A DNA stretch of 64,000 nucleotides from Candidatus Giovannonibacteria bacterium (GTDB taxonomy: Bacteria; Patescibacteriota; Minisyncoccia; JACPKW01; UBA11713), in NCBI GenBank assembly GCA_023266875.1, contig JAHFOJ010000002.1:3163-67162 (forward strand), given 5' to 3'. Positions 36,959 through 52,075 of the stretch are shown here, one piece after another (the first letter of the stretch is position 1; each line of letters begins with the position of its first letter). The position numbers were made by a program, and so were the translations under genes. Under the pieces are notes generated by a model, which saw nothing but the letters and a program-made list of their open reading frames with translations, did not search any database and had not been told where the DNA came from.

Positions 36959-37656
36959 TAATTCGTTTTTTCGAGCTCAATATTTCCAAACCGTTCCTCT
37001 TGGCTGACCAATAGCGCCCCTTCTTTCACAAGCTCGAGAAGCGCTAAAAATCCAATGATCACTTCCGTTTTGTTTTTCGCGCCTACCACATCCTTAAACG
37101 AAGCCTTTAAGCGCTCAGACAATCGCCTAATCAATTCCACCATTTTTTCTTCAATTGAGATTACTTTCTCAAGCGTTTTGGATGGCAATTCTTTTAACTT
37201 TGGGAATCCAGCGACTAAATTTTTCAGAGACAAATTAAGCGACCCAATCGAAACTCCTATTGGCTCAATAAACCCAAAATCCATGCCTTTGAAAGCTTCT
37301 CTTGAAAACATTTGGTTTAGCCCCCAAGCTTCCTTAATATTAAGCCCAAGTTCGCGCAGGCGCTGAAGCAGCTTCAATCTTGTTTCTAAATCATAAATCC
37401 CTTCCGTTTCTTCCTTTGTCAATTCAAGCGTTGGTAAAAGCGATCGGGATTTTATAAGCATCAAAGTGGAAGCAACCACAAGAAAATCAGCGGCTTCAGC
37501 GCGCGGGAAATCAGTCAACTTTCTCATGTGCTTGATATACTCATCCGTAACGGCCGACAAAGAAACAACTGATATCGAAAGCTTTTGCACCTCAATTAAA
37601 TCGAGGAGCAAATCAAGCGGCCCTTCAAATCCGCTAAGTTTTACGTTGAATTTCAT
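36958..37656 (-). CDS. scpA: Segregation and condensation protein A
   Basis: FEGPLDLLLDLIEVQKLSISVVSLSAVTDEY... is a kleisin ScpA pattern. Confidence 0.88.
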   Translation of the reverse strand: MKFNVKLSGFEGPLDLLLDLIEVQKLSISVVSLSAVTDEYIKHMRKLTDFPRAEAADFLVVASTLMLIKSRSLLPTLELTKEETEGIYDLETRLKLLQRLRELGLNIKEAWGLNQMFSREAFKGMDFGFIEPIGVSIGSLNLSLKNLVAGFPKLKELPSKTLEKVISIEEKMVELIRRLSERLKASFKDVVGAKNKTEVIIGFLALLELVKEGALLVSQEERFGNIELEKTN

Positions 37657-39071
37657 TTTTTGTCTTTTTTAATTTCGAGCCCCAATTCTTTCAGCTGCGC
37701 TTCTGATACTTCCGAAGGCGCCCCCATCATCAGATCTCGCCCTTCGCCTGTCTTTGGAAACGCGATCACTTCGCGGATATTCGGCTCATTCATTAAAATC
37801 ATAATGAGCCGGTCTATGCCAGGCGCGATCCCGCCGTGCGGAGGCACGCCAAAGCGAAATGCCTCAAACATATGTCCAAACTGGCGCTTGATATCTTCTT
37901 TTTTGTTGCCAAGTGCTTCAAAAACTGCTTTCAGAAGTTCCGGATCATGAACGCGGATCGACCCGCCTCCAACTTCAAAACCGTTTAGGACAAAATCATA
38001 TTGATCAGCAAGCATCTCCCCGGGGCGTTCCTTAAATTCCTTCCAAAATTCATCTACATTTTCCACTTGCGGTTTCGTGAATGGATGATGTGTCGCATCC
38101 CATCTCTTCTCCATTTCTCTCCATTCAAACGCCGGAAAATCCTCGACGAAAAGAAACGCAAGCTCATCGGGATTATTTTTGTCATTTCGAATATCAGGCT
38201 TGTCAGAACCATATTTTTTCATTGCTTCCTTATAAGTAATCCGCGGAATTTTGCCATCGGGATCGAGCGTAAGTTTTTTTTCTGGATACAGAGACCTGGC
38301 GAGAGCCAGGAACAAACCTTCAGTCAAGCGAAGCACATCTTCCTTTGTTACAAAACTCATTTCCAAATCCAGCTGGGTGAATTCGGGCTGGCGATCGCCC
38401 CGCGTGTCTTCGTCCCTAAAGCAGCGCGCAATCTGAAAATATTTTTCAAAGCCCGCGACCATTAATAGCTGCTTATATTGTTGCGGGGATTGCGGCAAGG
38501 CGTAAAAAGAACCCTGTTCAAGACGCGACGGCACAAGATAGTCTCGCGCGCCTTCCGGAGTTGACTTTGATAGAATTGGAGTTTCTATTTCTATAAAATC
38601 GCGCTCGGTCAAAAAATCTCGAATGAATTTTATTATCCTTGCGCGCTCGCGGAGATTCTTTGAAAGCCGTGGTCTGCGTAAATCTAGATATCGGTATTTC
38701 ATCCGAACATCCTCACCAATGTCATAGCCGGCGCTGGAAAGATCGAATGGCGGAGTATTTGCCTCGGCCAATATTCTTATCTCCGCGACCTTCATCTCAA
38801 TTTTACCCGTCGGGCTTTCAGAATTTATCATATCTGCCGGCCGCTCCTTGATCTCACCTGTAACAGAAACCACCCATTCCGGACGCAATTTCTGCGCTAA
38901 AACGCGCAGTTCTTCCGGTTTCGGAGCAACCACTAACTGGATTTTCCCCAAACTGTCGCGCAGGTCAAAAAAAATAAGCTTGCCGTGATCTCGTCTGACA
39001 TCAATCCATCCGCAAAGCTCTACTTTTTCGCCCAAATGCTCCGCGCTATCTGTGGTATATATCCTTGACAT
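37653..39071 (-). CDS. aspS: Aspartyl-tRNA synthetase (short type lacking the GAD insertion)
   Basis: An N-terminal OB domain and class II motifs (FYALPQSPQQYKQLLMV; FRDEDTRGDRQPEFTQLD; GGGSIRVHDPE...GIAPGIDRL). It is 472 aa. Confidence 0.92.
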   Translation of the reverse strand: MSRIYTTDSAEHLGEKVELCGWIDVRRDHGKLIFFDLRDSLGKIQLVVAPKPEELRVLAQKLRPEWVVSVTGEIKERPADMINSESPTGKIEMKVAEIRILAEANTPPFDLSSAGYDIGEDVRMKYRYLDLRRPRLSKNLRERARIIKFIRDFLTERDFIEIETPILSKSTPEGARDYLVPSRLEQGSFYALPQSPQQYKQLLMVAGFEKYFQIARCFRDEDTRGDRQPEFTQLDLEMSFVTKEDVLRLTEGLFLALARSLYPEKKLTLDPDGKIPRITYKEAMKKYGSDKPDIRNDKNNPDELAFLFVEDFPAFEWREMEKRWDATHHPFTKPQVENVDEFWKEFKERPGEMLADQYDFVLNGFEVGGGSIRVHDPELLKAVFEALGNKKEDIKRQFGHMFEAFRFGVPPHGGIAPGIDRLIMILMNEPNIREVIAFPKTGEGRDLMMGAPSEVSEAQLKELGLEIKKDKK

Positions 39072-39719: not shown

Positions 39720-41354
39720 CTATGCCCCATATGGAGCTGGATTCGGAAGATTTCGGCGTAGCGGCAGTCGGATCAAGAACGTGCTGCCTCTGCCTACGCC
39801 TGGTGATTCTGCCCAAATTTCTCCTCCGTGATCAGATACTATTCGTTTCGCGAGATAAAGCCCAAGCCCTATTCCTTCCGCGTTCGCTTTCGCGCCCGTA
39901 TTTCCTCTGGTAAATCGGCTGAATATTCTTTCAAGATCTTCTTTCACCATGCCAACACCCGAATCGAGGAAAGTAATCAATAAAACCTCCCCCCCGCCGC
40001 TGCTTTTCGTTTCAATTTTTATTTTTACAAAACCTCGCGGGGTGTATTTGAGGTCATTGTCTATAATATTTGTAATAACTTGGCGGAACTTTTCCTTATC
40101 CACCGAAACATCTGGCAAAGTAGAGTCCGGCTTTTCGAAAATAAGTTCAATTTGCTTATCACGTGCTGGTCCTTGAAATTCGTCAACAACATTAGCGATC
40201 ATAGGAGCGATCTGGGTTGATTCAAAATTGTAATTCATGCGCCCCGATTCAATCCGTGACAAATTAAGAAAATCATTCACTAAATTAATTAAGCGCTCAT
40301 TTGAAAGATAAACTTTCGAGAGAGTTTCTCTGACTTTAGAAGATATTTCCCCAAAACTTCCCTCCTGAATCATAGAAATATATCCTTTAATAATTGAAAG
40401 CGGAGTCCGAAGCTGATGAGTGGCAAGCGAAAGAAATTCCGATTTCAGCTGATCAAGTTTCTTTAGTTCCACATTGGCTTTCTCCAAATCCTCCGCCAAC
40501 TTCTGAATCTGTTCTCTGGAGCGAACTTCTTGTAAAACACTGCGTATTAAAAGTAACCCAAAGAGAATAACCAATACCAGAAGGCCACCGTCAAGAAATG
40601 CATCCTGTAAAGTTCTAGCAATAACTGTTCTTACTAAAAGAAATACACAAATTGAAAAAACCAGTAGTTCGGTAGCAATAACACGCACATTAAATAAACG
40701 ATGCTTTATGACAGCATATCCAAGGAAAAAGGGAAAAAAAGAAACTAAAAAATTACCAAATGGCGGGATAGGAACTCCATACCATAAAAAAAAGTTCGTA
40801 GCCCCACCTCCGAATCCAAAAATCGCCCCAAGGACAACATAAGAGATCTGCCCTTTCTTTGATTTATCGGATAGCTTATAAGATTTTGCCAATAAAATGA
40901 AAGCATATAAAACCAGCACAAAATAGAAAAAGATTAGATAAAAAGTATAAAGCGGTCCAGGACTCGGCCAAAATGGGAAAAATAATTTTGGCCCTATGCT
41001 CTTTATAAATAAATTAGAGGTAGAAAAAAGGGTAAGTAAAATCGAAATAATATAAATTAAATATAAAAAACTGCGCTTATTTTTAGACTGACCCAACAGC
41101 TCTAAAACCCAGTGAAAGTAAAAAACTGGGATAAAAATTGATCCTATAGAGAAAAATCTTATCCAGAAAAGCGCTGGTTCAACACTTGCACTCGAAAGCC
41201 ACTGCCAATATCCAAAACTCCAGACTGCTATAGCAGCCGTCATAAGAAAAAACAATTGGTTAATTCTATCCCGGAAGCTTTTATAAATAAGAAGGAACCC
41301 AAAACTTAAAGCAAATATTCCGTTTACTAATCCAGATAAAGCAAAAATATTCAT
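39720..41354 (-). CDS. Sensor histidine kinase with an N-terminal multi-TM sensor domain
   Basis: About 7 predicted TM helices, a coiled-coil, HisKA (LSLATHQLRTPLSII) and HATPase_c (...DSGVGM...GLGLYLAKRIV...). Confidence 0.85.
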   Translation of the reverse strand: MNIFALSGLVNGIFALSFGFLLIYKSFRDRINQLFFLMTAAIAVWSFGYWQWLSSASVEPALFWIRFFSIGSIFIPVFYFHWVLELLGQSKNKRSFLYLIYIISILLTLFSTSNLFIKSIGPKLFFPFWPSPGPLYTFYLIFFYFVLVLYAFILLAKSYKLSDKSKKGQISYVVLGAIFGFGGGATNFFLWYGVPIPPFGNFLVSFFPFFLGYAVIKHRLFNVRVIATELLVFSICVFLLVRTVIARTLQDAFLDGGLLVLVILFGLLLIRSVLQEVRSREQIQKLAEDLEKANVELKKLDQLKSEFLSLATHQLRTPLSIIKGYISMIQEGSFGEISSKVRETLSKVYLSNERLINLVNDFLNLSRIESGRMNYNFESTQIAPMIANVVDEFQGPARDKQIELIFEKPDSTLPDVSVDKEKFRQVITNIIDNDLKYTPRGFVKIKIETKSSGGGEVLLITFLDSGVGMVKEDLERIFSRFTRGNTGAKANAEGIGLGLYLAKRIVSDHGGEIWAESPGVGRGSTFLIRLPLRRNLPNPAPYGA

Positions 41355-42232
41355 ATCTTACTAACCTTAGCAATAATATGGACTTTTAGTGGTTCAAATA
41401 TTATGTCTGGTTCACTCGAAAAACCGGCCTCAACCAATAGCTTCTTTAAATCCTTAGGTTCGCGATAATACATAAAAGGCCATCCTAAATTTGTGACAAA
41501 CGGCATTTCCTCATTTGGATGAACATTCGCCACAATAAAAACACCACCAGGCTTTAATATATTGTAAACACTTCTTATAAGTTCTGCTCCGCTTTCTTCC
41601 GAAAAATAATCTAAGAGCCCAACCATTTCTGCAATATCAAAAAAGTCCCCGCCCGATATTAACGTTTTTAAGTTACGTGCATCACCCCTAATCCAATCAA
41701 AAAGATCTGTGGAATCAAACTCCCCAGCGAGCTTTTTGCCAGCATCAATGGCGCGCTCATCCTTATCTATGTTTAAAACTTTTATATTTAAATGCCTCTC
41801 TTGGGAGATACGGTTTATAGATTGAATAAGAGCTCGCATCGAACCACCCCCAACGCTTATAATTTTGATTAAACGAGTATCGTCTATCCTCGTTAACCTT
41901 AAAATTTCTTCGTCCATATTCATTTCAACCAGCGCAAGCCGATTTCTTAAGGCTTTCGGCTGAGAGAAACAATGATGCCAAAATAAATCCGCCAAGCCCT
42001 GCATAATTCCTCTCGAAAATAAGCCACGTTGGTGTCTGGTATACATTGCATCTAAAGCAGCGGCAGTTCCTGTATTTTGAACTACAGTTTTAGAATCATG
42101 GCTTGTAGATCGCATCATCTTCTTTAGAAATTCCGGAGAAACATGATTCATAATTGGAACGCTAAAAATCCTGATAAACTTTGTCACCAGTCCATGAGTT
42201 TCCATTTCATTAGATATGGTTGTCGTTCCCAT
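41351..42232 (-). CDS. Class I SAM-dependent methyltransferase translationally coupled to the histidine kinase
   Basis: Motif I IISVGGGSMRA, an acidic motif II and motif IV in a Rossmann-fold MTase arrangement. It overlaps the HK gene by 4 nt. Confidence 0.65.
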   Translation of the reverse strand: MGTTTISNEMETHGLVTKFIRIFSVPIMNHVSPEFLKKMMRSTSHDSKTVVQNTGTAAALDAMYTRHQRGLFSRGIMQGLADLFWHHCFSQPKALRNRLALVEMNMDEEILRLTRIDDTRLIKIISVGGGSMRALIQSINRISQERHLNIKVLNIDKDERAIDAGKKLAGEFDSTDLFDWIRGDARNLKTLISGGDFFDIAEMVGLLDYFSEESGAELIRSVYNILKPGGVFIVANVHPNEEMPFVTNLGWPFMYYREPKDLKKLLVEAGFSSEPDIIFEPLKVHIIAKVSKI

Positions 42233-42604: not shown

Positions 42605-42647
42605 TTTTTTATTCTATTATTTAAATAAAATTATTGCAAATTTATAA

Positions 42648-42685
42648 TATCCCACAAAAAGCCCGTGGAAATAAGGAATAAAAAT
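42648..42685. repeat. Direct repeat copy 2, TATCCCACAAAAAGCCCGTGGAAATAAGGAATAAAAA
   Basis: See copy 1. Confidence 0.55.
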
Positions 42686-42767
42686 TACATGTTGCGTCGC
42701 ATTTAGACCTGTTATAAAATGGGGACGAATTTAAATTCTTTAATAACCGAAAGGAGAACGGAAGATA

Positions 42768-44687
42768 ATGAAGACGAAGAAAGCACGATGGATAATCGGA
42801 GGTTTAATTTTTTGGATAGTTGGATTGCTTGAGGGAAAAACTGAAGCAAATTTTGGTGGGCTCCATAGGGAATTTTCCCCATGCGCCCCAGGCAACGGCC
42901 GCGCAGTCGCGTTCAGCCCGGAGAGCAAAAATATTTTCTACACGCTCTGGAACGATACGCGAATATTCATAACCGACCCTAACAACACCACTTGCTCGGC
43001 GATTAATACTGGAATTGTTTTCGGAGCGCTCGCATACGACGGAAAACGCAAACGTCTCTGGGGCGCCGGTTATGACTATGGCCACCGCGGCGGAATTTAT
43101 CTGATTGATTCAAATGGTGCGTCCTCGCTCCAATTCAGCTTCATCCCCAACGAAACAACCTGCCTTCAGAACCAATATCATGGATATTTCACCGGACTTT
43201 CATATGATGAAGGCCCGACTTCATCGAACAGCGATGACTCGCTCTGGCTCGTCGACAATGACGGGAAAACAATTTACCACATGAGTCTGCAAGGCAATTT
43301 AATATCAAGTTCGGTAATTCCAAAGGGACCTCGTACCGGTCTCGTCGGCTGTGCAAATGGCATCGCCTCTGACAGGGACTTCTTGTGGATCACACTTATA
43401 TCTGGGTTGCATGCAGACATAAGCGGCATAATGCCTTTTGACATCGTAAAAGTCAGAAAATCTGACCCATCCACGATCGTCGAAAGTTTTTCTGCGGACA
43501 ACATAAACAACAACAGTCCAATAGGAATAGCGATCGAACGAGGAAAAACCATTCCAGGAAGAACCGGCCTATGGGTCAATTTTACCGGCGGAAATAATAT
43601 TAGACTCTTTGAAGCCGATAAAATCACTCCGGTCATTCTCGTAAACGGCTTTAGTGGCAACGCGGAAAGTTTCGGTCAAATGGCAGAATATCTAGCGCTT
43701 GACGGTTTTCCGGTGTATGTATTTGACTACGGAGAATTTACCGGACTAAATAGCGACATCTCAATCGAAGAAATCGCGGCGCTGTTCGCAGGATATGTTA
43801 ACGACGTCTTAAGAGTGACAGGAACCGGTCAAGTTGATATTGTAGTCCACTCAATGGGCGGACTTGTGGCAAGAGCATGGATCGCCGGCCTTGCGACAGT
43901 TCCGGTAAAATACACAGGACAAATTCGACGTATGATAACGCTCGGCACACTTAATTACGGAGCAGTGGCGGCGTCAATCGCAGATTTGATTATGACCAAT
44001 AACTCACCGATTCAGGGAGACGAGATGGCCCTTGGCAGTAACTTTCTATTAAACCTCCACAAGAATTGGATGGCCTTGAAATCATCAGGCGCGATTCTTC
44101 CTGATATTCTTTTTGTTGCAGGAACAAGCGGCATCGAAAATACTATTGATGAATGCGGCGGGATCGGCTGCTCGGATCAGATTGTCGATATCACAAGCGC
44201 CATTATGCCGGATGCCCCAGCAAACATGGTTCGTTACGTCCCATACATCCACGCGCATATCATGCCGTTGCCGTTCTCTCCGACGTCGATCGCTGAAATA
44301 GATTCAAAGGATCACGCCAGTTACAGAATTGCGAAAGCCTTCCTTGACGACGTAGTCTTGGACCAATGCTGCGACTCCGCCTCAATCGGATACACCCCGC
44401 CCCACGAAAGAAATGTGCCTAAAGAAAAAACGGGGACTCTGATTTTCCAGCTGATTGATAAGAAAGCCCTCACCCCGATTCTCGGCAAAAAAATAACAAT
44501 AAAACTCGATCGCGCAGCAAAAGCCGCGCTAATAGACATCAATTCGGGCACAGCCGGTGTGACAATCTTGAATCTGCCGGAGGGTTTACGCAAAGTAACC
44601 GTATCGGTAAAAGGTCGCAAAAACATAATTCTAAACATTGCAATTAAAGCTGCATACCCAATCGTGATATCAGAAATTGCAATGTGA
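42768..44687 (+). CDS. Secreted multi-domain protein with a class-2 (Bacillus LipA-like) alpha/beta-hydrolase lipase domain
   Basis: A signal peptide and an N-terminal domain of about 280 aa, followed by PVILVNGFSGNAESF ... VDIVVHSMGGLVARAW (the lipase GXSXG nucleophile elbow AHSMGG) and a C-terminal domain of about 230 aa. Confidence 0.75.
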   Translation: MKTKKARWIIGGLIFWIVGLLEGKTEANFGGLHREFSPCAPGNGRAVAFSPESKNIFYTLWNDTRIFITDPNNTTCSAINTGIVFGALAYDGKRKRLWGAGYDYGHRGGIYLIDSNGASSLQFSFIPNETTCLQNQYHGYFTGLSYDEGPTSSNSDDSLWLVDNDGKTIYHMSLQGNLISSSVIPKGPRTGLVGCANGIASDRDFLWITLISGLHADISGIMPFDIVKVRKSDPSTIVESFSADNINNNSPIGIAIERGKTIPGRTGLWVNFTGGNNIRLFEADKITPVILVNGFSGNAESFGQMAEYLALDGFPVYVFDYGEFTGLNSDISIEEIAALFAGYVNDVLRVTGTGQVDIVVHSMGGLVARAWIAGLATVPVKYTGQIRRMITLGTLNYGAVAASIADLIMTNNSPIQGDEMALGSNFLLNLHKNWMALKSSGAILPDILFVAGTSGIENTIDECGGIGCSDQIVDITSAIMPDAPANMVRYVPYIHAHIMPLPFSPTSIAEIDSKDHASYRIAKAFLDDVVLDQCCDSASIGYTPPHERNVPKEKTGTLIFQLIDKKALTPILGKKITIKLDRAAKAALIDINSGTAGVTILNLPEGLRKVTVSVKGRKNIILNIAIKAAYPIVISEIAM

Positions 44688-44699
44688 CCCGCAAAGCAA

Positions 44700-44739
44700 A
44701 AGCCTGACTAGAGGACAGTTTACTCCTCTAGTCAGGCTT
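44700..44739. terminator. Perfect 15-bp stem-loop (AGCCTGACTAGAGGA/TCCTCTAGTCAGGCT), a bidirectional terminator
   Basis: Seen directly. It is followed by TTTTCAG on the plus strand and lies between the convergent lipase and plsC-like genes. Confidence 0.7.
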
Positions 44740-44745
44740 TTCAGA

Positions 44746-45378
44746 TTAAGCGCGAATATTTTCAAAAAGCGCAAGTATTTTTTCGTGTATAACCGCCGTC
44801 CCCTCTTCTACCGTAATCGAATTAGAATCGTCAAGCCTAAACGGCTCCCCGACGCAAATTTGAATATTTCGGCCTTGGGCTTTTATTGCGATGGGGATCA
44901 CCGGGACTTTCGCGCCTAGCGCGATTGCAGATGCCCCGTGGCGAAAAACTCCAAGCGCGCCGCTTTTTTGCACTCGTCCCTCTGGGAACATCACAACCGT
45001 CTCGCCTGACCTTAGAATATCGAGCGGGGTTTTTATGGCAGCGTCTATCCCTTCCCCGCGCTTCGACGGGAAAACCCCCATAATTCTGAACAGCAACGGG
45101 ATGAGGCCAATTTTCCGCAAAAAATCAAGAAATCTGTGATTAAATTTTATATATTCCCCCATATAACGAAGCGGAACGAGCGGCGAGAAAAGCGGCAAAG
45201 AAAGTCCGATTAAAAATGAGTCGTAAAACGCAATATGATTTGAAACTATAAGCACCGGCCCTGCGACGCGTTTAAACTCTTCGCGGCCCGAAATTTTGAC
45301 CTTACGAAAAATATGAAATAGCAGCCAAGAGCCGGGTTTTATTATAAAATTCTGACTAAATTTATACCAATATTTCAT
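44746..45378 (-). CDS. Lysophospholipid/glycerol-3-phosphate acyltransferase family protein (PlsC-like)
   Basis: The NHxxxxD motif (VSNHIAFYDS) and FPEGR motif. Confidence 0.8.
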   Translation of the reverse strand: MKYWYKFSQNFIIKPGSWLLFHIFRKVKISGREEFKRVAGPVLIVSNHIAFYDSFLIGLSLPLFSPLVPLRYMGEYIKFNHRFLDFLRKIGLIPLLFRIMGVFPSKRGEGIDAAIKTPLDILRSGETVVMFPEGRVQKSGALGVFRHGASAIALGAKVPVIPIAIKAQGRNIQICVGEPFRLDDSNSITVEEGTAVIHEKILALFENIRA

Positions 45379-45500
45379 TGCGCGACCTAATTGACGATGT
45401 TAGAAATTATTTAATTTTGTCTTTTAAATATGGTGAGTAAAAATTTCTATACTTAGATTGAAATTCAAAGTCTTTCCAACTATTAGAATCTATAATTTTT

Positions 45501-46646
45501 CTACATTTTAAACATTCCGGCTAGTAAATCTCGAACAATCTCCGCCGTGCCGGCCGCCAGTGAAAAAGCCTGAGAATCTTGCCGAACATGCGAAAGCCAA
45601 TGATCTTCTAAAAATCCCTCGGCTCCGTGTAGGTGAACACATTCGCTAATAATTTTTTGACAATTCTCGTAACTAAATATTTTCAGCATTAAAATTTCTT
45701 TATCCACCGGCTTACCTTCTGCAAAAGCATCACATACCAAGTAGGTAAACTGTCTAGCGGCTTCTATGGTGGTACGCAACTCGACCATTCTATGACGAAT
45801 GACCTGTTTTTTACTAAGCGCTTCGTCAAATCGATGGCGGCTTTGAAGAAAATTAAGAGTGTCCTCCCAAATATAAAGAGCCAAAGAATTCAGCGCCACA
45901 GCTCCAATTAAACGTTCTCTTTGTAATCCGCGTAATAAGTATAGAAACCCTCGCGTGGAATCTCCAAGTAAACTACCCTTGGAGATTGAACAATCCTTAA
46001 AGCAGATCGATGCGGTATCACTTGTCTTTAATCCAACAGTAACGAGTTTCTCTCTTTTTATACCCCTTGCATCACCTGGCACTAAAAACAAACCAAGCGC
46101 CCAAATATCTTTTTGAGTTTTAGTTCGCGCTAATACAACTGTATAGTTGGCAATGGATCCATTTGTTATATATCTTTTTTCACCATTCAATATATAATTT
46201 TTACCTTTTAGCAGAGCCACTGTAGTAATAGATGCTAAGTCTGACCCGCTACTAGGATCAGTGGCAGCAAGCGCAAGATAAAATTTCCCGGCAAGTGCGG
46301 GTTTTAATATTTTTTCCTTTTGCTCATTATTTCCTAATTGAAAAATTAAAGGAGCAACCATGTTGCTTTGCACTAAAATAGACAACGCCCAGCCTAGTAC
46401 TCTAGATCGAGCTAATTCTTCGGCCAAGATAACTTCATGCCAAAAATCTTTATTACCACCCCCAACACTTTCAGGCAGGGAAAGACCGATAAATCCATGC
46501 TCGCCGACTTTCTGAAGTAGATTTACAGGAATACTTCTTGTTTTTTCCCATTCGAGCGCGTGAGGAATTACTTCTTTTGCTATAAATTTTCTAACAGTTT
46601 GCCGGAAATTTTTATGTGGTACATCTTCAAAAATAATAGGCTCCAT
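45501..46646 (-). CDS. Acyl-CoA dehydrogenase family protein, a possible acyl/aminoacyl-carrier-protein dehydrogenase
   Basis: 381 aa with the ACAD N/M/C-domain pattern (...YITNGSIANY..., C-terminal ...GAEGFLEDHWLSHVRQDSQAFSLAAGTAEI). An ACP gene lies immediately upstream. Confidence 0.8.
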   Translation of the reverse strand: MEPIIFEDVPHKNFRQTVRKFIAKEVIPHALEWEKTRSIPVNLLQKVGEHGFIGLSLPESVGGGNKDFWHEVILAEELARSRVLGWALSILVQSNMVAPLIFQLGNNEQKEKILKPALAGKFYLALAATDPSSGSDLASITTVALLKGKNYILNGEKRYITNGSIANYTVVLARTKTQKDIWALGLFLVPGDARGIKREKLVTVGLKTSDTASICFKDCSISKGSLLGDSTRGFLYLLRGLQRERLIGAVALNSLALYIWEDTLNFLQSRHRFDEALSKKQVIRHRMVELRTTIEAARQFTYLVCDAFAEGKPVDKEILMLKIFSYENCQKIISECVHLHGAEGFLEDHWLSHVRQDSQAFSLAAGTAEIVRDLLAGMFKM

Positions 46647-46650
46647 AATA

Positions 46651-46908
46651 TTAAAAAGATTCTATTGGTAGCTTACGCTTACTACTACCCTTGTTCTGAA
46701 TTACATAATCCACAATATCGCCAACTGTCTTAATATGATTCATTTTACTAGGCTCTATTGAAACTTTATATTCATCACTCAAAACAGCAATTAATTCGAC
46801 TATATCCATTGAGTCCTTGGCGATATCTTCGAGAAGTGTAGAATCATTAACCTGATTCGGTTCTTTATATAACGTAGCTCTTATTATTTCTATAATTTCA
46901 TCTTTCAT
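46651..46908 (-). CDS. Acyl carrier protein (phosphopantetheine attachment DSMD)
   Basis: 85 aa with LEDIAKDSMDIVELIAVL, a PP-binding serine motif. Confidence 0.75.
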   Translation of the reverse strand: MKDEIIEIIRATLYKEPNQVNDSTLLEDIAKDSMDIVELIAVLSDEYKVSIEPSKMNHIKTVGDIVDYVIQNKGSSKRKLPIESF

Positions 46909-47456
46909 AATAAATCCTTAAAATAAGTCTTGAATGGCTCTGTGTTTGAAAGCTTGTCATAAACCTCCTCGTCCATTTTCTCCAATTTCTGCATAATCGC
47001 ATCCAATTTCCCCTGACCATTTTCCCGGGCATACTTATCTAATTCTTCGCGTATCCATCCGATGTGACCAGTCTCATCATCAATCATTTTTTGTAAGGCC
47101 TCTTTAACCAGAGGATTTGTATCGGGTAGGTTTAGATGTTTGGTGAATTGATTAAGTGTGCGTTTTTCAAAAACTTGGGTCAAGCAAAAAATCTCAAGGG
47201 TATTTTCCGGCATCCCGAATAATTTCCCATACTCAGTTTGATAAGTTTCCGTCACCTTAACTGGTATACGTCCAAGATCCTTAATCACTTTTGTCCAACG
47301 CCAAGCATGCTCGGCCTCCTCGAGGCAGTGTTCGGTTAGTGGAATTCGATATTCACCTATAGTGGTGTGAAAAGCAAGTTTACCAAACAAGATTGAGCCA
47401 GATAGTTCACACGCACGATAGTAACTGAGAATATATAATTCTTGGTCTGACATCAT
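46905..47456 (-). CDS. Ferritin-like or diiron-carboxylate protein (putative oxidase/oxygenase subunit)
   Basis: 183 aa with the paired EEAEHAWRW and DDETGHIGW (E..H) motifs typical of diiron sites. It overlaps its neighbours by 4 nt. Confidence 0.5.
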   Translation of the reverse strand: MMSDQELYILSYYRACELSGSILFGKLAFHTTIGEYRIPLTEHCLEEAEHAWRWTKVIKDLGRIPVKVTETYQTEYGKLFGMPENTLEIFCLTQVFEKRTLNQFTKHLNLPDTNPLVKEALQKMIDDETGHIGWIREELDKYARENGQGKLDAIMQKLEKMDEEVYDKLSNTEPFKTYFKDLL

Positions 47457-47458
47457 AT

Positions 47459-48157
47459 TTATATTTGTTTATCGGCAAGAGCTTCACTCGGTCGTTTGCC
47501 CACTAATCGTCCCACTTTTTCATTAAAACCTTGGATGATTCTTATATTATCTTCTTTTGCCGGTGAAACTTGTGGCATAACGTACTCTCCTATGTGTTGA
47601 TAGTTTAGTGCGTGTTCAAGTACCTGACCCTTAACCTTAGGGTCTGCTTTGATCATTTCTTCAAGTAAATCAAAAGCGAATTGAGAATGACTGACTTCTT
47701 CGGCAGAAAATCTTGGCAGAAGATTTTTTAAAACCGGCTCTTCGGTGAGTTGTATGAGGTCTCTAAAGAATTCGGCGGCAAAATGTTCGGTGCCCATAAA
47801 ATTTACTAACTCACGTACTTTGTCCGTATATCTTTTATCCTTATCTTTTGAACGCACATCTCTAACTTCTTCATCTGTTACTGGATTGTATCCGACAATT
47901 TCAAGGTATCGTCGTAAAATAAAATAATGACCATATGCCTCAAACGCCTCTATTGTAAAAATTGAAGTTGCCGCCACGTTGTCCCAAAATAGTTCGTTCA
48001 TTTTTCCTGTGTAAATGGGGAGGTAGCACTCCACAAGACAAGCTTCGCGCAACAAGTCTAAACATTTAGTGTTCTTTAATGCCAATTCTTTATTGATTGA
48101 TTTCCAATCAACCCTGCTATCAAAAATTTTACTATTAGCGAAGTCAATGGTTGTCAT
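47459..48157 (-). CDS. Diiron oxidase/oxygenase-like protein (ferritin-like or heme-oxygenase-like fold)
   Basis: 232 aa with EAFEAYGHY, TEHFAAEFF and AEEVSHSQF His/Glu helices. Confidence 0.5.
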   Translation of the reverse strand: MTTIDFANSKIFDSRVDWKSINKELALKNTKCLDLLREACLVECYLPIYTGKMNELFWDNVAATSIFTIEAFEAYGHYFILRRYLEIVGYNPVTDEEVRDVRSKDKDKRYTDKVRELVNFMGTEHFAAEFFRDLIQLTEEPVLKNLLPRFSAEEVSHSQFAFDLLEEMIKADPKVKGQVLEHALNYQHIGEYVMPQVSPAKEDNIRIIQGFNEKVGRLVGKRPSEALADKQI

Positions 48158-48158
48158 A

Positions 48159-48989
48159 TTAGTCTTTTACTCCAATTAGTATTGTTTGTAACTCATTTTG
48201 ATAAGCGTGAATTGTATTAAATCCGGCTTGATTAGCAAGGATTTTTAAAAAATCCTCTGAACGATAGTGGGTATAAAGTTCTGCAATATTTTTCATTAGA
48301 TATTCGGAAAATTTATGCGGCATCATTCCTGATGTAAAAAATATCCCACCTTCTTTTAAATTATTGTGGGCAATTTTATAAAAATGCAGAGTATCCTCAT
48401 CGCTTAAGAACTCAGTGAACCCCGTACAGATAATCATATCGTATTTTTTGTTTTTTCGGTAGCTCTCTTCATTAAACGCATCCCCTTGCCAAAAAAACAT
48501 TTGATGCTTGTGATGATCATTTTTCTTTCCTAATACCTCTATGAGTTCACGATCCAAATCAATTCCATGCCATCTGATGCGCTTATAAAATGGGTGACTC
48601 GCGATTTGTAGTTCATGGGCGACTTCAAAAATTTCTCTCCCGAGTCCACATGGCACTGCTAAAATATCAATCGGCTCTTTGTGACGCACGTTATCTATAA
48701 GATTGTAGATTTCTTCTTTAGCGTGAATATATCTTGATCGGAGGGAACGAGACGACTTTAAATTTAAGAGTATGGAATCAAGTATTTTTCCGATAACAAA
48801 TTTACCCTTGGGTTTATTGGCATAGATATGATCAGCAAATTGATAGCTTCCTGAATTTTTAATTCCTTCACGAGCCAGCTCACTTGTTAATAGTAAATAA
48901 TAAATAGGCAAAAGATAGGACTTTCCCTCTCTCAATAATTTTCTAGGGATCGAGGAAGATTGGCGAGTTTTATTGTAACATTTTGGCAT
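48159..48989 (-). CDS. Class I SAM-dependent methyltransferase
   Basis: Motif I ILAVPCGLGREIF and WHGIDLD, with a Rossmann MTase arrangement. Confidence 0.7.
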   Translation of the reverse strand: MPKCYNKTRQSSSIPRKLLREGKSYLLPIYYLLLTSELAREGIKNSGSYQFADHIYANKPKGKFVIGKILDSILLNLKSSRSLRSRYIHAKEEIYNLIDNVRHKEPIDILAVPCGLGREIFEVAHELQIASHPFYKRIRWHGIDLDRELIEVLGKKNDHHKHQMFFWQGDAFNEESYRKNKKYDMIICTGFTEFLSDEDTLHFYKIAHNNLKEGGIFFTSGMMPHKFSEYLMKNIAELYTHYRSEDFLKILANQAGFNTIHAYQNELQTILIGVKD

Positions 48990-49743
48990 ATTTTTTGAAT
49001 TTCTTTGGCCAGGTCTTTTGGTCGCCCCCCCAAACTTTTAAACTATAGGCGGTCAATCTTTCTATACCAAAAGCAACACAGAGAGAGTTTGAAAAAGTCT
49101 TGCCATTTTTTATGTCGAAGCGTTTCCCAAAAAAATCTTCGTGATTGTTTATTGAAGCTAACGCGATTTTTCTTTTTCCATCATGTACTATAAATTCTTG
49201 TTTGAGACCTTTAAGTTGCTGAATCATTTTTGCCCCCTCATCTTGTCCAAGAAAGAAAGCATCTGTGGCATTTTTAAACTCACCATTGAACCCGAAATCA
49301 GTAAGGGTTGTTTTTACTAAATCTTCAATCCTCTTAATTTTTTCGATAATCTCTTTTTCATTTCCAATAATTACCAATTCAACCATATGAAAATCTGGGA
49401 GACGATATGGTGATTGCCAATTTCCATTCTCATATCTTGCGCAATGAGCCATTCCAAATGCGGCGTACTTCTTTACGTCTTTACCTTTTAGTTCGGGATA
49501 TACATGTAGGCAAGCCGCCGGTGTTACAAATTGCTCTGTTGAATTAAGAGTATTCATTGCAGTAAAAAGTTGATTTGGAAAATGTTTAAAATATTTTGCA
49601 TCAAACAAAACCTTTTTCGAAATGAAAAGAGGCGGGTTGAAAACTGAATCATAATGGGGACGGAAAATGTTATGCAAAAATAACACCCACGCTTGGAATA
49701 AGCGTATTTTTTGCAACATCGATTTATTATGAGTTTTAGTCAT
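48970..49743 (-). CDS. Truncated seryl-tRNA-synthetase-like class II catalytic core, a putative amino acid:[carrier-protein] ligase
   Basis: 257 aa lacking the N-terminal tRNA-binding arm. Motif 2-like is ...HCARYENG...YRLPDFHMVELVI (compare SerRS CFRREAG...RVHQFEKVE). Motif 3-like is CVAFGIERL. It overlaps the downstream ACP gene by 8 nt. Confidence 0.65.
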   Translation of the reverse strand: MTKTHNKSMLQKIRLFQAWVLFLHNIFRPHYDSVFNPPLFISKKVLFDAKYFKHFPNQLFTAMNTLNSTEQFVTPAACLHVYPELKGKDVKKYAAFGMAHCARYENGNWQSPYRLPDFHMVELVIIGNEKEIIEKIKRIEDLVKTTLTDFGFNGEFKNATDAFFLGQDEGAKMIQQLKGLKQEFIVHDGKRKIALASINNHEDFFGKRFDIKNGKTFSNSLCVAFGIERLTAYSLKVWGGDQKTWPKKFKKYAKMLQ

Positions 49744-49969
49744 CGCTCTTCAAAAATGTTTCCACTATCTTCCGAACAGATTCAAAATTTGGCATTATAA
49801 CTTCATCGTCTGTTAATTTTCGTCCCAAATGCTTTTCTATATAGCCGATAAGATCGAGAATATTCATTGAATCTAATACTTTATCCTTAAATAGGAGGGT
49901 ATTTGAATCGATGGTTCGACCCTTATCACGACAAATGCTTTTTATAAATTTTAGAAGTTCCTGTTGCAT
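49736..49969 (-). CDS. Acyl/aminoacyl carrier protein (phosphopantetheine attachment DSMN)
   Basis: 77 aa with KVLDSMNILDLIGYIE, a PP-binding serine. Confidence 0.75.
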   Translation of the reverse strand: MQQELLKFIKSICRDKGRTIDSNTLLFKDKVLDSMNILDLIGYIEKHLGRKLTDDEVIMPNFESVRKIVETFLKSDD

Positions 49970-49970
49970 A

Positions 49971-51131
49971 TTATTGAATTTTACCCCATTTAGATTTTAT
50001 GCAGTACTCTATAACTTTTCCGTAGTAATCGCGAATACCCGGCAAATGCTTTTTATAATCTGGGAGCATCGCCAACAGACTGTTTTGGAAAAAGTTTTTT
50101 GGATAGAGAAGTTGATGGGCAAAATGATTAAGAGCGGATAATACGTTTTTTAAAACGGGATTATTTGCGGATACCGCTGAATTCATAAAGAGGTCAAAAG
50201 CCTCTTCTGATACAATAGCTGGTTTAGGATAGTTTTTTTCTACCCAGCTAGAGTCTGCTTCTGCCATGCCCTTAAAACTCTCATCTATGATTTCTTGCAG
50301 GGTTAGTGATCCTGATCCGTGTGTAATATGAAAAGTTTTATTTGGGGAAAAGTTATTCCAAAAGAGGTTAAAAAGAGTACTCGCCGTATAGTCACTCGAA
50401 ATGAGATCAACAGAGTAGTTAGGAGTACCAGGAAACATTGAAGCTAAGCCAAGATACATCATGCGTATTGCTTGGTGGGGTGCAGTAAAATGACTAACCT
50501 TTCCTGTTTTACTATCGCCAATTACCGTAGAAAGGCGGTATATAGCCACAGGAACACTTTTAGCCAAGTTCTTCAAAAATACCTCCGCTTCATATTTGGA
50601 TTGCTCGTATGTATTTACAAAACCAGCCTCATGTTCTAACTCGTTTTCTTTGATAATCCCTATTCTTTTGCCGCTTACGTAAGCTGTGCTTATAAAGCCA
50701 AATTGTTTGAGGTTAGAACACTTTTGACCAAAGTCAGCAACATTTTTTGTGCCGGTAACATTTATTTGTCTTGCTTCACCCAGCGGAAGATCAAATCTCG
50801 TAGAGGCGGCACAGTGAAAAATATGGGTCGTTTTACCAAGTAGATCGTTATAGTCGGAAGAACTTTCTACCCCCATATTCTGTTTTGTGATATCGCCCTT
50901 TATAATTTGTAATCTTTCCATGAATTCTTTTTTATTTTGCAATGCAAAAAATGATTGTAAAATCGTTTTTTTATCACCACCCGATCCCTTGTCATGTACT
51001 AAAAGATAGATATTTGCTTGAGTATTTTTAAACAAAAGAGAAACGAGCTCTCTCCCTACCATCCCCGTGCCACCGGTAATAAAAATTTGTTGCGCCATAT
51101 ACTCTAATGTTGCAAGATTAGACAAGACCAA
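49971..51131 (-). CDS. NAD(P)-dependent thioester reductase (fatty acyl-CoA/ACP reductase-like, NAD_binding_4/SDR fold)
   Basis: Rossmann ITGGTGMVG, catalytic YEQSK (YxxxK), and a length and organisation typical of terminal reductase (R) domains. Confidence 0.7.
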   Translation of the reverse strand: MVLSNLATLEYMAQQIFITGGTGMVGRELVSLLFKNTQANIYLLVHDKGSGGDKKTILQSFFALQNKKEFMERLQIIKGDITKQNMGVESSSDYNDLLGKTTHIFHCAASTRFDLPLGEARQINVTGTKNVADFGQKCSNLKQFGFISTAYVSGKRIGIIKENELEHEAGFVNTYEQSKYEAEVFLKNLAKSVPVAIYRLSTVIGDSKTGKVSHFTAPHQAIRMMYLGLASMFPGTPNYSVDLISSDYTASTLFNLFWNNFSPNKTFHITHGSGSLTLQEIIDESFKGMAEADSSWVEKNYPKPAIVSEEAFDLFMNSAVSANNPVLKNVLSALNHFAHQLLYPKNFFQNSLLAMLPDYKKHLPGIRDYYGKVIEYCIKSKWGKIQ

Positions 51132-52075
51132 TTGGCTCCAAAGCCAAACGTAAATAACGCCAGATAATCTCCTTTTTTAAGATAGCCATCTTTATCCATA
51201 TCTACGAGATTAATAATATGATCACAAGAAACGGTGTGACCAACTCGTGATATATTTTTTGACCAAATCTTTTCCATTGGAGTGTGAAGTAGCTTTGAGA
51301 GTATCTCCCAACTCCTTAAACTCACATTATGAGGTACAAACCATTTAATATCTGACATGGTTAATCCCGCCCCCTTAACTGCGTTTTCAATTGTCCGTTG
51401 TGCCATTGGAAAATAAGAAGCTAATAATTCGTTTTCATGTTGCGGGGTATCCCAGTAGTAGGATTGAAATTCTTGATGAAAATATACTATCCTATTCTTT
51501 TCGGAATTTTTGGTGACTACAAGTGCTGCCGTGGCATCACTCATAATGTTGTACATAATTTCTCTTTTGGTTCCAGCTGGTAATGCATCAACAGCTGCGC
51601 ATAGTATTGATTCTTGTTGCGTGTTTGAGTTAGAAAGCAATTGATCCGCCAGATCAATTGCAGATAACAATCCGCTGCAACCCTGTTGAGATAGACCAAT
51701 TGCGTTCGCATTAAAAAGCCCAAGCTTATGTCGAAGCTCTGCGGCCGGATAACGAAATAAATTCAATGCGTTACCCTCATCTTGGTTATTAGCACTGTTG
51801 ATTCCGGAGTATAAAAAAATTCGAGTAATACTATCACCGGTAGTTTTATTTTCGCGCAAGACTTCTTCGGCGCTATTTAATAAAAGACCCTCAATGCTCT
51901 CGTTGTTGCTTTGAACATAACATTCCCTAAATCCAAAATCGTGCAATACTGATACAGGCGAAGTGATCTTCTTTTCTTCCTCGAGTTGTTCAAGCGACTT
52001 CTTATTTCTGGGAAGCCGATATGCCAGCGCCGCTATACCAATTGATGTTTGGCTTTTGTCTATATTTTTTTTCAT
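51104..52075 (-). CDS. 3-oxoacyl-ACP synthase III (FabH-like) ketosynthase/acyltransferase
   Basis: The active-site Cys block GCSGLLSAIDLA, the His block WFVPHNVS and the C-terminal FGFGANWSCLIL, all in the thiolase fold. Confidence 0.75.
   Translation of the reverse strand: MKKNIDKSQTSIGIAALAYRLPRNKKSLEQLEEEKKITSPVSVLHDFGFRECYVQSNNESIEGLLLNSAEEVLRENKTTGDSITRIFLYSGINSANNQDEGNALNLFRYPAAELRHKLGLFNANAIGLSQQGCSGLLSAIDLADQLLSNSNTQQESILCAAVDALPAGTKREIMYNIMSDATAALVVTKNSEKNRIVYFHQEFQSYYWDTPQHENELLASYFPMAQRTIENAVKGAGLTMSDIKWFVPHNVSLRSWEILSKLLHTPMEKIWSKNISRVGHTVSCDHIINLVDMDKDGYLKKGDYLALFTFGFGANWSCLILQH

What the first reader, a model, noticed from the sequence alone, without database searches (positions are those of the whole stretch)
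42768..44687. Large secreted lipase with unusual N- and C-terminal domains
The 639-aa secreted protein has a central Bacillus LipA-type class-2 lipase core with the AHSMGG nucleophile elbow. It is sandwiched between an N-terminal domain of about 280 aa that looks repeat- or beta-rich and a C-terminal domain of about 230 aa containing a Cys pair. Class-2 lipases are normally minimal proteins of about 20 kDa. In an organism presumed to depend on host lipids, this could be the harvesting enzyme feeding the adjacent acyltransferase and ACP island.
Basis: partly seen in the sequence, partly recalled or inferred. Interest (0 to 1): 0.55.

Follow-up and report, generated by a model that had tools for sequence, protein, structure and literature searches.

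The report
Secreted three-domain lipase-family hydrolase
The gene encodes a real, probably secreted, lipase-type serine hydrolase built from a five-bladed propeller, a catalytic core related to Bacillus LipA and Legionella PlaB, and a small beta-sandwich. This exact fusion was seen nowhere else, but each part is a known kind and nothing ties the gene to the neighbouring acyl-carrier gene island.

Summary
The ORF is exactly where stated: 42768-44687, + strand, 639 aa.

- **Residues 1-27:** a Sec-type signal peptide, judged by rule of thumb.
- **Residues 286-535:** one alpha/beta-hydrolase domain of about 250 aa with a helical lid. It passes Pfam Lipase_2 and falls below the DUF7379 cut-off. The elbow reads VHSMGG, not AHSMGG. 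The triad is Ser362/Asp470/His495; Asp and His are invariant in 80 relatives.
- **Residues 536-639:** a seven-stranded beta-sandwich.

The hydrolase plus sandwich unit recurs in 75 of 119 relatives, whose median length is 607 aa. Its best solved match is the Legionella phospholipase PlaB.

The propeller belongs to an unnamed family that is elsewhere fused to M23, NlpC/P60, GH25 and cutinase domains. Only the window copy has lost that family's invariant acidic residues.

No other protein among the best 150 matches from 1.84 billion representatives combines all three modules.

The gene is monocistronic and convergent with the ACP island, and differs from it in GC content. The "feeds the island" idea is therefore unsupported.

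Verdict: a new domain variant of a known enzyme kind, of modest interest.

The parts
42620..42648 (+). Promoter-like site, TTTAAA-17-TATAAT, 10 of 12 matches
   Evidence: This is a consensus match only. The region holds 8 such sites against 5.6 expected by chance.
42753..42756 (+). Shine-Dalgarno GGAG, 11 nt upstream of the ATG
   Evidence: Read directly from the sequence (aaaggagaacggaagataATG).
42768..42848 (+). Residues 1-27: Sec-type signal peptide (MKTKKAR, hydrophobic W8-L21, TEA|N)
   Evidence: Hydropathy scan. There is no lipobox Cys. This is inferred by rule of thumb because SignalP was not available.
42849..43622 (+). Residues 28-285: five-bladed beta-propeller, a divergent member of an unnamed family
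43623..44372 (+). Residues 286-535: alpha/beta-hydrolase domain (Lipase_2 / DUF7379-like) with a three-helix lid at about 401-439
   Evidence: (pLDDT 94.8).
43851..43853 (+). Ser362 codon: the nucleophile in V-H-S-M-G-G
   Evidence: Ser in 74 of 75 relatives. It aligns to PlaB Ser85.
44175..44177 (+). Asp470 codon: the catalytic acid
   Evidence: Invariant in 80 of 80 relatives. It aligns to PlaB residue 203, which is Asn in the sequence of the solved chain; D203N is the inactive triad mutant described in the paper.
44250..44252 (+). His495 codon: the catalytic base
   Evidence: Invariant in 80 of 80 relatives. It lies 25 residues after the Asp. The comparable spacing in LipA is 23, taken from textbook knowledge, so this assignment is inferred.
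44373..44684 (+). Residues 536-639: seven-stranded beta-sandwich that travels with the hydrolase
   Evidence: Seven strands at pLDDT above 90. It co-occurs with the hydrolase in 75 of 119 relatives. Four of ten homologues give weak, sub-threshold CarboxypepD_reg or PEGA hits; the window copy gives none.
44698..44741 (.). 18-bp perfect hairpin between the convergent stop codons: candidate bidirectional terminator
   Evidence: -30.8 kcal/mol, z = -7.4, and 0 of 200 shuffles fold as well. The consensus terminator scan did not flag it.

Best explanation
The gene encodes an exported, three-module serine hydrolase of the lipase type.

- **Export (inferred).** After Sec export and signal-peptide cleavage, the mature protein consists of a five-bladed beta-propeller, an alpha/beta-hydrolase domain of about 250 aa, and a beta-sandwich.
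- **Catalytic core (shown by sequence and model).** The hydrolase has a helical lid and the triad Ser362/Asp470/His495. It forms a conserved two-domain unit with the C-terminal beta-sandwich. That unit is built like the phospholipase-plus-sandwich arrangement of Legionella PlaB.
- **Substrate (inferred).** It most likely cleaves fatty-acyl esters of extracellular or membrane lipids, such as acylglycerols or phospholipids, through the classical acyl-enzyme mechanism.
- **Propeller (inferred).** The propeller is a mobile accessory module that other secreted enzymes also carry. In this protein it has lost the polar pocket its family conserves. It therefore probably acts as a scaffold or as a re-purposed binding surface, not in its ancestral role.
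- **Transcription (shown by gene layout).** The gene is an independent transcription unit.
For: **ORF and translation signals:**

**Signal-peptide features:**

**Family assignment**
- Lipase_2 scores 40 bits, above its gathering cut-off.
- 73 of 81 relatives hit DUF7379 and 57 of 81 hit Lipase_2.
- The family profile matches the MAJ1 mono-/diacylglycerol lipase 7v3k at 1.6e-16, Lip_vut1 at 2e-14 and PlaB at 1.2e-13. In the PlaB alignment Ser362 falls on PlaB S85 and Asp470 on PlaB D203 (PlaB triad from bioRxiv 10.1101/2020.09.01.246603; MAJ1 activity from PMC4100168).

**Structure**
- The AF2 model has pLDDT 94.8.
- The top Foldseek hit is PlaB 6zti, with E = 1.5e-14 and TMq 0.69. Lipases without a C-terminal beta domain reach TMq of 0.48 or less. 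This implies that the sandwich superposes together with the hydrolase.
- The next 30 or so hits are all lipases.

**Conservation**
- Asp470 and His495 are invariant. H361, S362, G364 and R369 are conserved in at least 99 % of relatives, G365 in 97 % and H516 in 95 %.
- The lid motif Q416...G423-S424-x-F426...L430...W434 is conserved in at least 92 % of relatives and is shared with the PlaB lid region.

**Module co-occurrence:** the hydrolase and sandwich co-occur in 75 of 119 relatives.

**Propeller:** fold. Its family is fused elsewhere to secreted hydrolases.

**Independent transcription:**
Against: - No member of this hydrolase subfamily has been characterised. DUF7379 appears in none of the papers searched.
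- Sequence similarity to characterised lipases covers mainly the N-terminal half of the fold.
- The substrate is inferred only from relatives that share 14-20 % identity in structural alignments.
- The window protein deviates at two positions. P395, which is Pro in 77 of 77 relatives, is Leu here. The Ala before His-Ser is Val here.
- The signal peptide was not scored with a trained predictor.
Confidence: 0.62

Rival explanations
1. The enzyme harvests host lipids, and the released fatty acids feed the adjacent acyltransferase/ACP island.
For: - The lipase-type fold and likely export.
- Physical adjacency to a PlsC-like acyltransferase 58 nt downstream. That acyltransferase shares the lipase gene's higher GC: 0.455 against 0.471.
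Against: - The two genes are convergent and separated by a strong hairpin.
- The rest of the island has GC 0.34-0.40.
- The island carries its own KAS III-like enzyme, PPTase, aaRS-like ligase and reductase, so it looks like a de novo carrier-protein pathway.
- It contains no acyl-CoA or acyl-ACP synthetase to activate free fatty acids.
- No relative of the hydrolase was shown to share this neighbourhood.
- The host-dependent lifestyle is unverified.
Confidence: 0.1
2. It is an esterase for a non-lipid ester substrate rather than a lipase or phospholipase. Candidates are a PhaZ7-like polyhydroxyalkanoate or polyester depolymerase, a cutinase-like enzyme, or a deacetylase of cell-wall polymers.
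For: - Weak matches to PhaZ7: NCBIfam E = 1.1e-3, profile E about 6e-5 and Foldseek rank 36.
- The propeller family is elsewhere attached to peptidoglycan hydrolases and a cutinase.
- Five-bladed propellers are typical carbohydrate-active or carbohydrate-binding folds.
Against: - The PhaZ7 score of 18 bits is far below the 450-bit cut-off.
- Lipases and PlaB rank far higher both by profile and by fold.
- The window's propeller has lost its family's conserved pocket, so a partner-based inference is weak here.
Confidence: 0.18
3. It is an antagonistic, membrane-attacking phospholipase effector aimed at a host or competitor cell, and the propeller serves as the targeting module.
For: - The closest solved two-domain match, PlaB, is a surface-exposed virulence phospholipase.
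- The propeller family is shared with cell-envelope-degrading enzymes: M23, NlpC/P60 and GH25.
- The protein is probably exported.
Against: - No immunity-like gene lies in an operon with it. The neighbours are a divergent 83-aa protein without a signal peptide and the convergent acyltransferase.
- No secretion-system marker domain was found.
- The propeller's conserved pocket is ablated.
- The propeller family has no phage relatives.
Confidence: 0.12
4. The three-module ORF is an assembly chimera or a frame artefact that joins two unrelated genes.
For: The N-H-C combination is seen only in this protein among 158 proteins analysed. Its 90 % identity cluster has a single member.
Against: - The reading frame is continuous across the junction. 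Both AF2 models cover residues 280-290, though less confidently than the domain cores (block-mean pLDDT 72-79).
- GC and GC3 are uniform across the modules: propeller 0.478/0.508 and hydrolase 0.483/0.500.
- The same protein is recorded on a 77-kb contig in NCBI and ENA.
- Beta-propeller plus hydrolase-sandwich architectures recur with Kelch, NHL and PD40 propellers.
Confidence: 0.02

Closest known systems
Legionella pneumophila phospholipase A / lysophospholipase PlaB (PDB 6zth/6zti)
   Same: - An alpha/beta-hydrolase domain followed directly by a beta-sandwich domain. It is the best fold match (E = 1.5e-14, TMq 0.69).
- Profile match at 1.2e-13. The Ser and Asp of the triad align, and the two share the lid motif GS...L...W and the Asp motif D-G-V-V (the window reads D-Q-I-V).
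   Different: - PlaB has THSTG around its serine; the window has VHSMGG.
- PlaB has no signal peptide.
- The PlaB C-terminal domain is about 150 aa, bilobed, and carries a hook. PlaB also has beta6/7 and beta9/10 insertions and forms an NAD(H)-stabilised tetramer.
- Here the C-terminal domain is about 100 aa and Asp-to-His spacing is 25, against 48 in PlaB.
- An N-terminal propeller is present here and absent in PlaB.
- Structural-alignment identity is only 14 %.
Bacillus subtilis LipA and other class-2 (family I.4) lipases, Pfam PF01674
   Same: - Passes the Pfam gathering score.
- 32 % identity over 102 columns, covering the PVxxVHG and (A/V)HSMGG motifs.
- A Ser-Asp-His triad with similar Asp-to-His spacing.
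   Different: - LipA is a lid-less enzyme of 181 aa.
- Here the core is about 250 aa with a three-helix lid and conserved Cys pairs, and the alignment stops before the lid.
- Val replaces the Ala of the pentapeptide.
- Two extra domains are present.
Actinobacterial family I.7-type lipases MAS1 (5h6b) and MAJ1 (7v3k)
   Same: - Best sequence-level PDB matches: 2.7e-8 with the single sequence and 1.6e-16 with the profile. The alignment extends into the lid.
- TMt 0.55-0.66.
- MAJ1 is a characterised mono-/diacylglycerol lipase (PMC4100168).
   Different: They are single-domain enzymes of about 260-310 aa and share only 17-20 % identity in structural alignment. MAJ1 has S-Q-G-G where the window has S-M-G-G.
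Pfam DUF7379 (PF24096): uncharacterised multidomain hydrolases, e.g. the TIGR03437-family proteins of Acidobacteriota (P0004-P0006)
   Same: - 73 of 81 relatives match this model.
- P0004 aligns over residues 299-527 at 30 % identity, including the Asp and His.
- Relatives are typically large secreted multidomain proteins with propellers or Ig-like domains.
   Different: - The window protein scores 23-24 bits, below the 33-bit cut-off.
- The accompanying domains differ. Relatives carry TIG, Kelch, NHL, PD40 or CARDB domains, whereas the window carries this five-bladed propeller.
Five-bladed propellers: bacterial glutaminyl cyclase (3mbr, 3nok) and E. coli YjiK C-terminal domain (3qqz)
   Different: - 11-16 % identity.
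- No Pfam glutaminyl-cyclase hit and no SdiA-regulated-family hit.
- The function of the propeller family itself is unknown.

Membership tests
Pfam Lipase_2 (PF01674) | Whole-protein score at or above the gathering cut-off of 20.3 bits | tested here: met
   40.0 bits, E = 4.2e-10. Only profile positions 2-133 of 219 are matched.
Pfam DUF7379 (PF24096) | Whole-protein score at or above the gathering cut-off of 33 bits | tested here: not met
   23.1 bits for the full protein and 24.3 bits for residues 280-639. Even so, 73 of 81 relatives match at E <= 1e-3.
Bacterial lipase subfamily I.4 (B. subtilis LipA type) | A-H-S-M-G pentapeptide around the nucleophile | tested here: not met
   The window reads V-H-S-M-G. 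Ala is the consensus of the relatives (66 of 75).
Bacterial lipase subfamily I.4 (B. subtilis LipA type) | Minimal, lid-less alpha/beta fold of about 180 aa as the whole mature protein | tested here: not met
   The core is about 250 aa with helices at 401-408, 414-420 and 425-439, and two further domains are present.
Serine alpha/beta-hydrolases (general) | Ser-Asp-His triad in the canonical order, conserved across relatives | tested here: met
   S362 in 74 of 75, D470 in 80 of 80 and H495 in 80 of 80 relatives. The Ser and Asp align to PlaB S85 and D203. The 3-D geometry was not measured.
PlaB phospholipase family | Unusual triad motifs (THSTG around the Ser), described as unique to PlaB homologues | tested here: not met
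   The window has VHSMGG.
PlaB phospholipase family | Hydrolase domain followed by a bilobed beta-sandwich C-terminal domain with a hook that complements a partner monomer | tested here: inconclusive
   A beta-sandwich follows the hydrolase and the pair superposes on PlaB (TMq 0.69). However, it is about 100 aa against about 150 aa in PlaB, and the hook and bilobed shape could not be inspected.
PlaB phospholipase family | NAD(H)-mediated tetramerisation, and surface association without a signal peptide | not testable with these tools
   The window protein has a signal-peptide-like N-terminus. Oligomerisation and NAD binding would need experiments.
Unnamed five-bladed propeller family (N-domain relatives P0002, P0019-P0158) | Five-bladed fold, and sequence similarity over the whole domain | tested here: met
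   31-47 % identity to 38 sequences. The domain HMM scores E = 1e-89. The model has 20 strands.
Unnamed five-bladed propeller family (N-domain relatives P0002, P0019-P0158) | Invariant or near-invariant polar residues R45, D50, D142, D147, D164, N196, E252 and D257 | tested here: not met
   The window keeps R45 and D147. It has S50, T142, N164, A196, I252 and E257, plus Y90 and A100. All other members that cover these positions keep D142, D164 and E252, and only one lacks D50.
Bacterial-type glutaminyl cyclase | Sequence-family membership, not only a shared fold | tested here: not met
   No Pfam or NCBIfam hit for the domain. The profile scores E = 0.49 against 3mbr. The match is at fold level only.
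CarboxypepD_reg-like beta-sandwich (PF13620), for the C-terminal domain | Pfam score at or above 32.3 bits | tested here: not met
   The window's C-terminal domain gives no hit. Four of ten homologues score 15-20 bits, below the cut-off. A resemblance in fold class remains possible.
Sec-dependent secreted proteins | Cleavable N-terminal signal peptide | tested here: inconclusive
   The n-, h- and c-regions and a T-E-A cleavage motif are present. No trained predictor was available, so an uncleaved signal anchor cannot be excluded.

The most novel reading that the evidence does not exclude
The N-terminal module belongs to an undescribed family of five-bladed propellers with no Pfam or NCBIfam model. 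That family carries an invariant R/D/D/D/E pocket, and bacteria attach it to cell-envelope-degrading enzymes: M23, NlpC/P60, GH25, cutinase and trypsin-like domains. In this one lineage the module was fused to a PlaB-like phospholipase unit and its pocket was rebuilt. The result would be a new kind of exported, membrane-attacking or lipid-harvesting effector, with the propeller re-targeted to a different ligand on a host or prey surface.
Probability: 0.12. Interest if true: 0.6.

Novelty: new variant of a known kind. Interest (0 to 1): 0.3.

Why it matters
- **Annotation.** The ORF should be called a secreted multidomain lipase-family (Lipase_2 / DUF7379-like, PlaB-like) hydrolase, not a LipA-type minimal lipase with two unknown domains.
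- **A family worth characterising.** The hydrolase-plus-sandwich unit is a widespread but uncharacterised relative of the virulence phospholipase PlaB. It is found in Acidobacteriota, myxobacteria and other groups, usually behind a propeller. Characterising one member would inform more than 1000 proteins.
- **A natural contrast for the propeller.** The window copy has lost the pocket that its propeller family conserves. Comparing it with a canonical member would help work out what that unnamed family does.
- **What the finding does not show.** It gives no evidence for a lipid-scavenging pathway linked to the neighbouring ACP island.

Tried and rejected
1. **Word-indexed homologue search with the full protein.** It found only 9 hits and no full-length relative. 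The exhaustive representative search was needed.
2. **One MAFFT alignment of the full protein with all hits (A1).** It misaligned propeller proteins onto the hydrolase region and was discarded. Separate domain alignments A2 and A3 were used instead.
3. **Genome scan with the wide alignment A3.** The narrower alignment A4 worked. It did not recover the source genome, so taxonomy and lifestyle remain unknown.
4. **Exact-protein contig look-ups.** Neither the lipase nor the AspRS was on record.
5. **hhalign of the family profile against LipA.** It aligned only up to the lid, so Asp and His could not be mapped onto LipA this way. The PlaB profile alignment was used for Ser and Asp.
6. **Phage search with a canonical propeller.** No match, so the idea of a phage receptor-binding origin was dropped.
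7. **Plasmid search with the hydrolase.** Three weak partial hits only.
8. **Literature search for DUF7379 and for Patescibacteria phospholipases.** Nothing useful was found.
9. **Search for paralogues of any module in the window.** None were found.
10. **Triad geometry and disulfide partners.** These could not be measured because model coordinates are not exposed.
11. **P0073.** Its pairwise match ran from part of the propeller into the hydrolase, so it seemed to share both modules. Domain HMMs showed the hydrolase only.
Full report

Yes. An ATG-initiated ORF of 639 codons occupies 42768-44687 on the + strand. GGAG lies 11 nt upstream of the start, and a TTTAAA-17-TATAAT promoter-like site lies at 42620-42648. 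The N-terminus has the shape of a Sec signal peptide: MKTKKAR, then W8-L21, then T-E-A|N. It has no lipobox cysteine, and there is no other membrane-like segment except C-terminal beta-strands.

The core passes Pfam Lipase_2 with 40 bits against a cut-off of 20.3. It matches B. subtilis LipA and other solved lipases.

The nucleophile elbow reads VHSMGG at residues 360-365, not AHSMGG. Ala is the consensus of the relatives, in 66 of 75, but the window has Val.

**2. Anatomy**

An exhaustive HMMER search of 1.84 billion cluster representatives gave 1135 hits. None was full-length apart from the protein itself. Local domain mapping splits the protein into three modules:

| Module | Residues | Relatives among the 157 other proteins analysed |
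|---|---|---|
| N (propeller) | about 25-285 | 38 |
| H (hydrolase) | 285-535 | 119 |
| C (sandwich) | about 539-638 | 75, always together with H |

No other protein combines N with H.

Foldseek agrees.

*H and C modules.* The model has pLDDT 94.8. It shows an alpha/beta fold with three lid helices at full-length residues 401-408, 414-420 and 425-439, followed by seven beta-strands from residue 555 to residue 638.

It includes the second half of the hydrolase (lid, Asp and His) and a true beta-sandwich of about 100 aa. The Cys pairs C463/C468 and C534/C535 are conserved in the closest subfamily, and they belong to the hydrolase and its linker.

**3. Catalytic machinery**

- In 80 relatives, Asp470 and His495 are invariant.
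- H361, S362, G364 and R369 are conserved in at least 99 % of relatives, G365 in 97 % and H516 in 95 %.
- A profile of the family aligns to PlaB at E = 1.2e-13. Ser362 falls on PlaB Ser85, and Asp470 on PlaB position 203. Position 203 is Asn in the sequence of the solved chain, and the paper describes D203N as the inactive triad mutant.
- His495 lies 25 residues after the Asp. LipA has a spacing of 23, from textbook knowledge. Assigning His495 as the base is therefore an inference.
- The window deviates at P395 (Leu here, Pro in 77 of 77 relatives), at A360 (Val here) and at H293 (Asn here; 11 relatives share Asn).
- The solved relatives PlaB and MAJ1 also lack Pro at the position equivalent to 395, so this change is unlikely to be disabling.

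**4. What the catalytic unit resembles**

The best solved match for the H-C model is Legionella PlaB (6zti), with E = 1.5e-14 and TMq 0.69. Every lipase without a C-terminal beta domain gives TMq of 0.48 or less: MAS1, MAJ1, Pseudomonas and Burkholderia lipases, LipA, CalB and PhaZ7. By inference, the sandwich superposes together with the hydrolase.

PlaB is a surface-exposed phospholipase A / lysophospholipase whose C-terminal domain is required for activity. The family also shares the PlaB lid motif (GS..L...W) and the D-G-V-V motif around the Asp.

Membership in the PlaB family fails on several counts:
- PlaB has THSTG around its serine.
- PlaB has no signal peptide.
- The PlaB C-terminal domain is larger, bilobed and carries a hook.
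- PlaB has extra beta-hairpins.

By Pfam, most relatives are DUF7379 (73 of 81) and Lipase_2 (57 of 81). The window itself scores below the DUF7379 cut-off. No paper in the library mentions DUF7379.

Relatives of the core are typically large, with a median length of 607 aa. They often carry other propellers or Ig-like domains: Kelch in 8, NHL in 2, PD40 in 2, TIG in 9 and CARDB in 4. 'Propeller plus H-C' is thus a recurrent design. Only the propeller type is unique here.

In the GTDB species representatives, relatives are mostly Acidobacteriota (Bryobacteraceae), with myxobacteria, actinobacteria and others. The best match is 36 % identical, in a groundwater deltaproteobacterial MAG. The source genome was not recovered.

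**5. The propeller is a divergent member of its family**

Its relatives (31-47 % identity) have no Pfam or NCBIfam model. The only sign is a weak Phytase-like hit in 5 members.

The module occurs alone or fused to other domains:
- Peptidase_M23, in 5 members
- NlpC/P60
- GH25
- cutinase
- trypsin-like
- DUF3089-like hydrolase
- RCC1 and Ig-like domains

Every other member that covers these positions keeps R45, D142, D147, D164 and E252, and most keep D50, W90, G100, N196 and D257. The window protein alone has S50, Y90, A100, T142, N164, A196, I252 and E257.

On the strand map, R45, D142, N196 and E252 sit at the start of the innermost strand of blades 1, 3, 4 and 5. D164 sits in the adjacent B-C loop. 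By inference, they ring one mouth of the central channel, which is the usual ligand or active site of five-bladed propellers. This copy has therefore lost its family's conserved pocket while keeping the fold. It also gained a window-specific Cys pair, C39 and C76.

**6. Context**

- The gene is the only + strand gene in its neighbourhood.
- Upstream and divergent lie an 83-aa ORF with no family match, a methyltransferase, a 7TM histidine kinase, ArsR and AspRS.
- Downstream, 58 nt away and convergent, lies a PlsC-like acyltransferase.
- Between the two stop codons is an 18-bp perfect hairpin: -30.8 kcal/mol, z = -7.4.
- Behind the acyltransferase lies a carrier-protein cluster:
  - acyl-CoA dehydrogenase
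  - ACP
  - two ferritin-like proteins
  - a methyltransferase
  - a class-II aaRS-like ligase
  - a second ACP
  - an NAD_binding_4 reductase
  - a KAS III-like enzyme
  - an Sfp-type PPTase
- The cluster contains no fatty-acid-activating enzyme.
- Its genes have GC 0.34-0.40. The lipase gene has 0.471, uniform across its modules, which also argues against a chimeric assembly.
- No immunity-like partner gene is present.

**7. Conclusion**

- *Shown:* a real, intact ORF with three modules; a lipase-family core with a conserved triad; an H-C unit shared with many proteins and most similar to PlaB; a unique fusion to a degenerate five-bladed propeller; an independent transcription unit.
- *Inferred:* Sec export; lipid-ester (acylglycerol or phospholipid) hydrolysis; an accessory or re-purposed role for the propeller.
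- *Not supported:* a functional coupling to the ACP island.
- *Not testable here:* the substrate, the oligomeric state and the lifestyle of the organism.

This is a new domain variant of a known enzyme kind and is of modest interest. The more interesting by-products are the uncharacterised PlaB-related H-C family and the unnamed propeller family.

Noticed in passing
window 44746-52694 (- strand): A self-contained carrier-protein biosynthetic cluster. It comprises a PlsC-like acyltransferase, an acyl-CoA dehydrogenase, an ACP, two ferritin-like/di-iron proteins (weak AurF and rubrerythrin hits), a Methyltransf_20, a class-II aaRS-like amino acid:carrier-protein-ligase-like protein (48970-49743), a second ACP, an NAD_binding_4 thioester reductase, a KAS III-like enzyme and an Sfp-type PPTase. 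Apart from the acyltransferase (0.455), its genes have GC 0.34-0.40, against a window ORF mean of 0.425. It looks like an acquired small-molecule or lipid-modification pathway.
   Followed up: partly
window 39720-42232 and 48159-48989: Two Methyltransf_20 (PF12147) paralogues flank the lipase/acyltransferase pair. Both sit in low-GC blocks (about 0.35-0.385), while the lipase (0.471) and the acyltransferase (0.455) form a higher-GC pair between them. This may be a mosaic or an insertion.
   Followed up: no
proteins P0002, P0019-P0158 (relatives of window residues 25-285); loci L001 and L002: An apparently undescribed five-bladed propeller family. It has invariant R/D/D/D/E residues and no Pfam or NCBIfam model. 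It occurs alone or fused to M23, NlpC/P60, GH25, cutinase, trypsin-like, RCC1 and Ig-like domains, and P0061 has two tandem copies. In P0002 and P0003 it follows a different hydrolase-like domain (VSHSQGN).
   Followed up: partly
proteins P0010-P0156 (relatives of window residues 285-639): The hydrolase-plus-sandwich unit is a large uncharacterised family: 1135 representatives at E <= 1e-3 across all three modules, about three-quarters of the best 150 through the hydrolase. It is distantly but specifically related to the Legionella virulence phospholipase PlaB. It usually sits behind Kelch, NHL, PD40 or BNR-like propellers or Ig-like domains. Some proteins carry two or three hydrolase copies, for example P0157.
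   Followed up: partly
window 37653-39071 (- strand): The AspRS is only 472 aa, compared with about 590 aa recalled from memory for typical bacterial enzymes. It was not examined further. It might help place the organism.
   Followed up: no
locus L001 599-1521: Next to the propeller-containing homologue P0003, the contig carries ThsB_TIR and 8xMP genes, which look like defence-system genes. This is probably unrelated to the finding.
   Followed up: no
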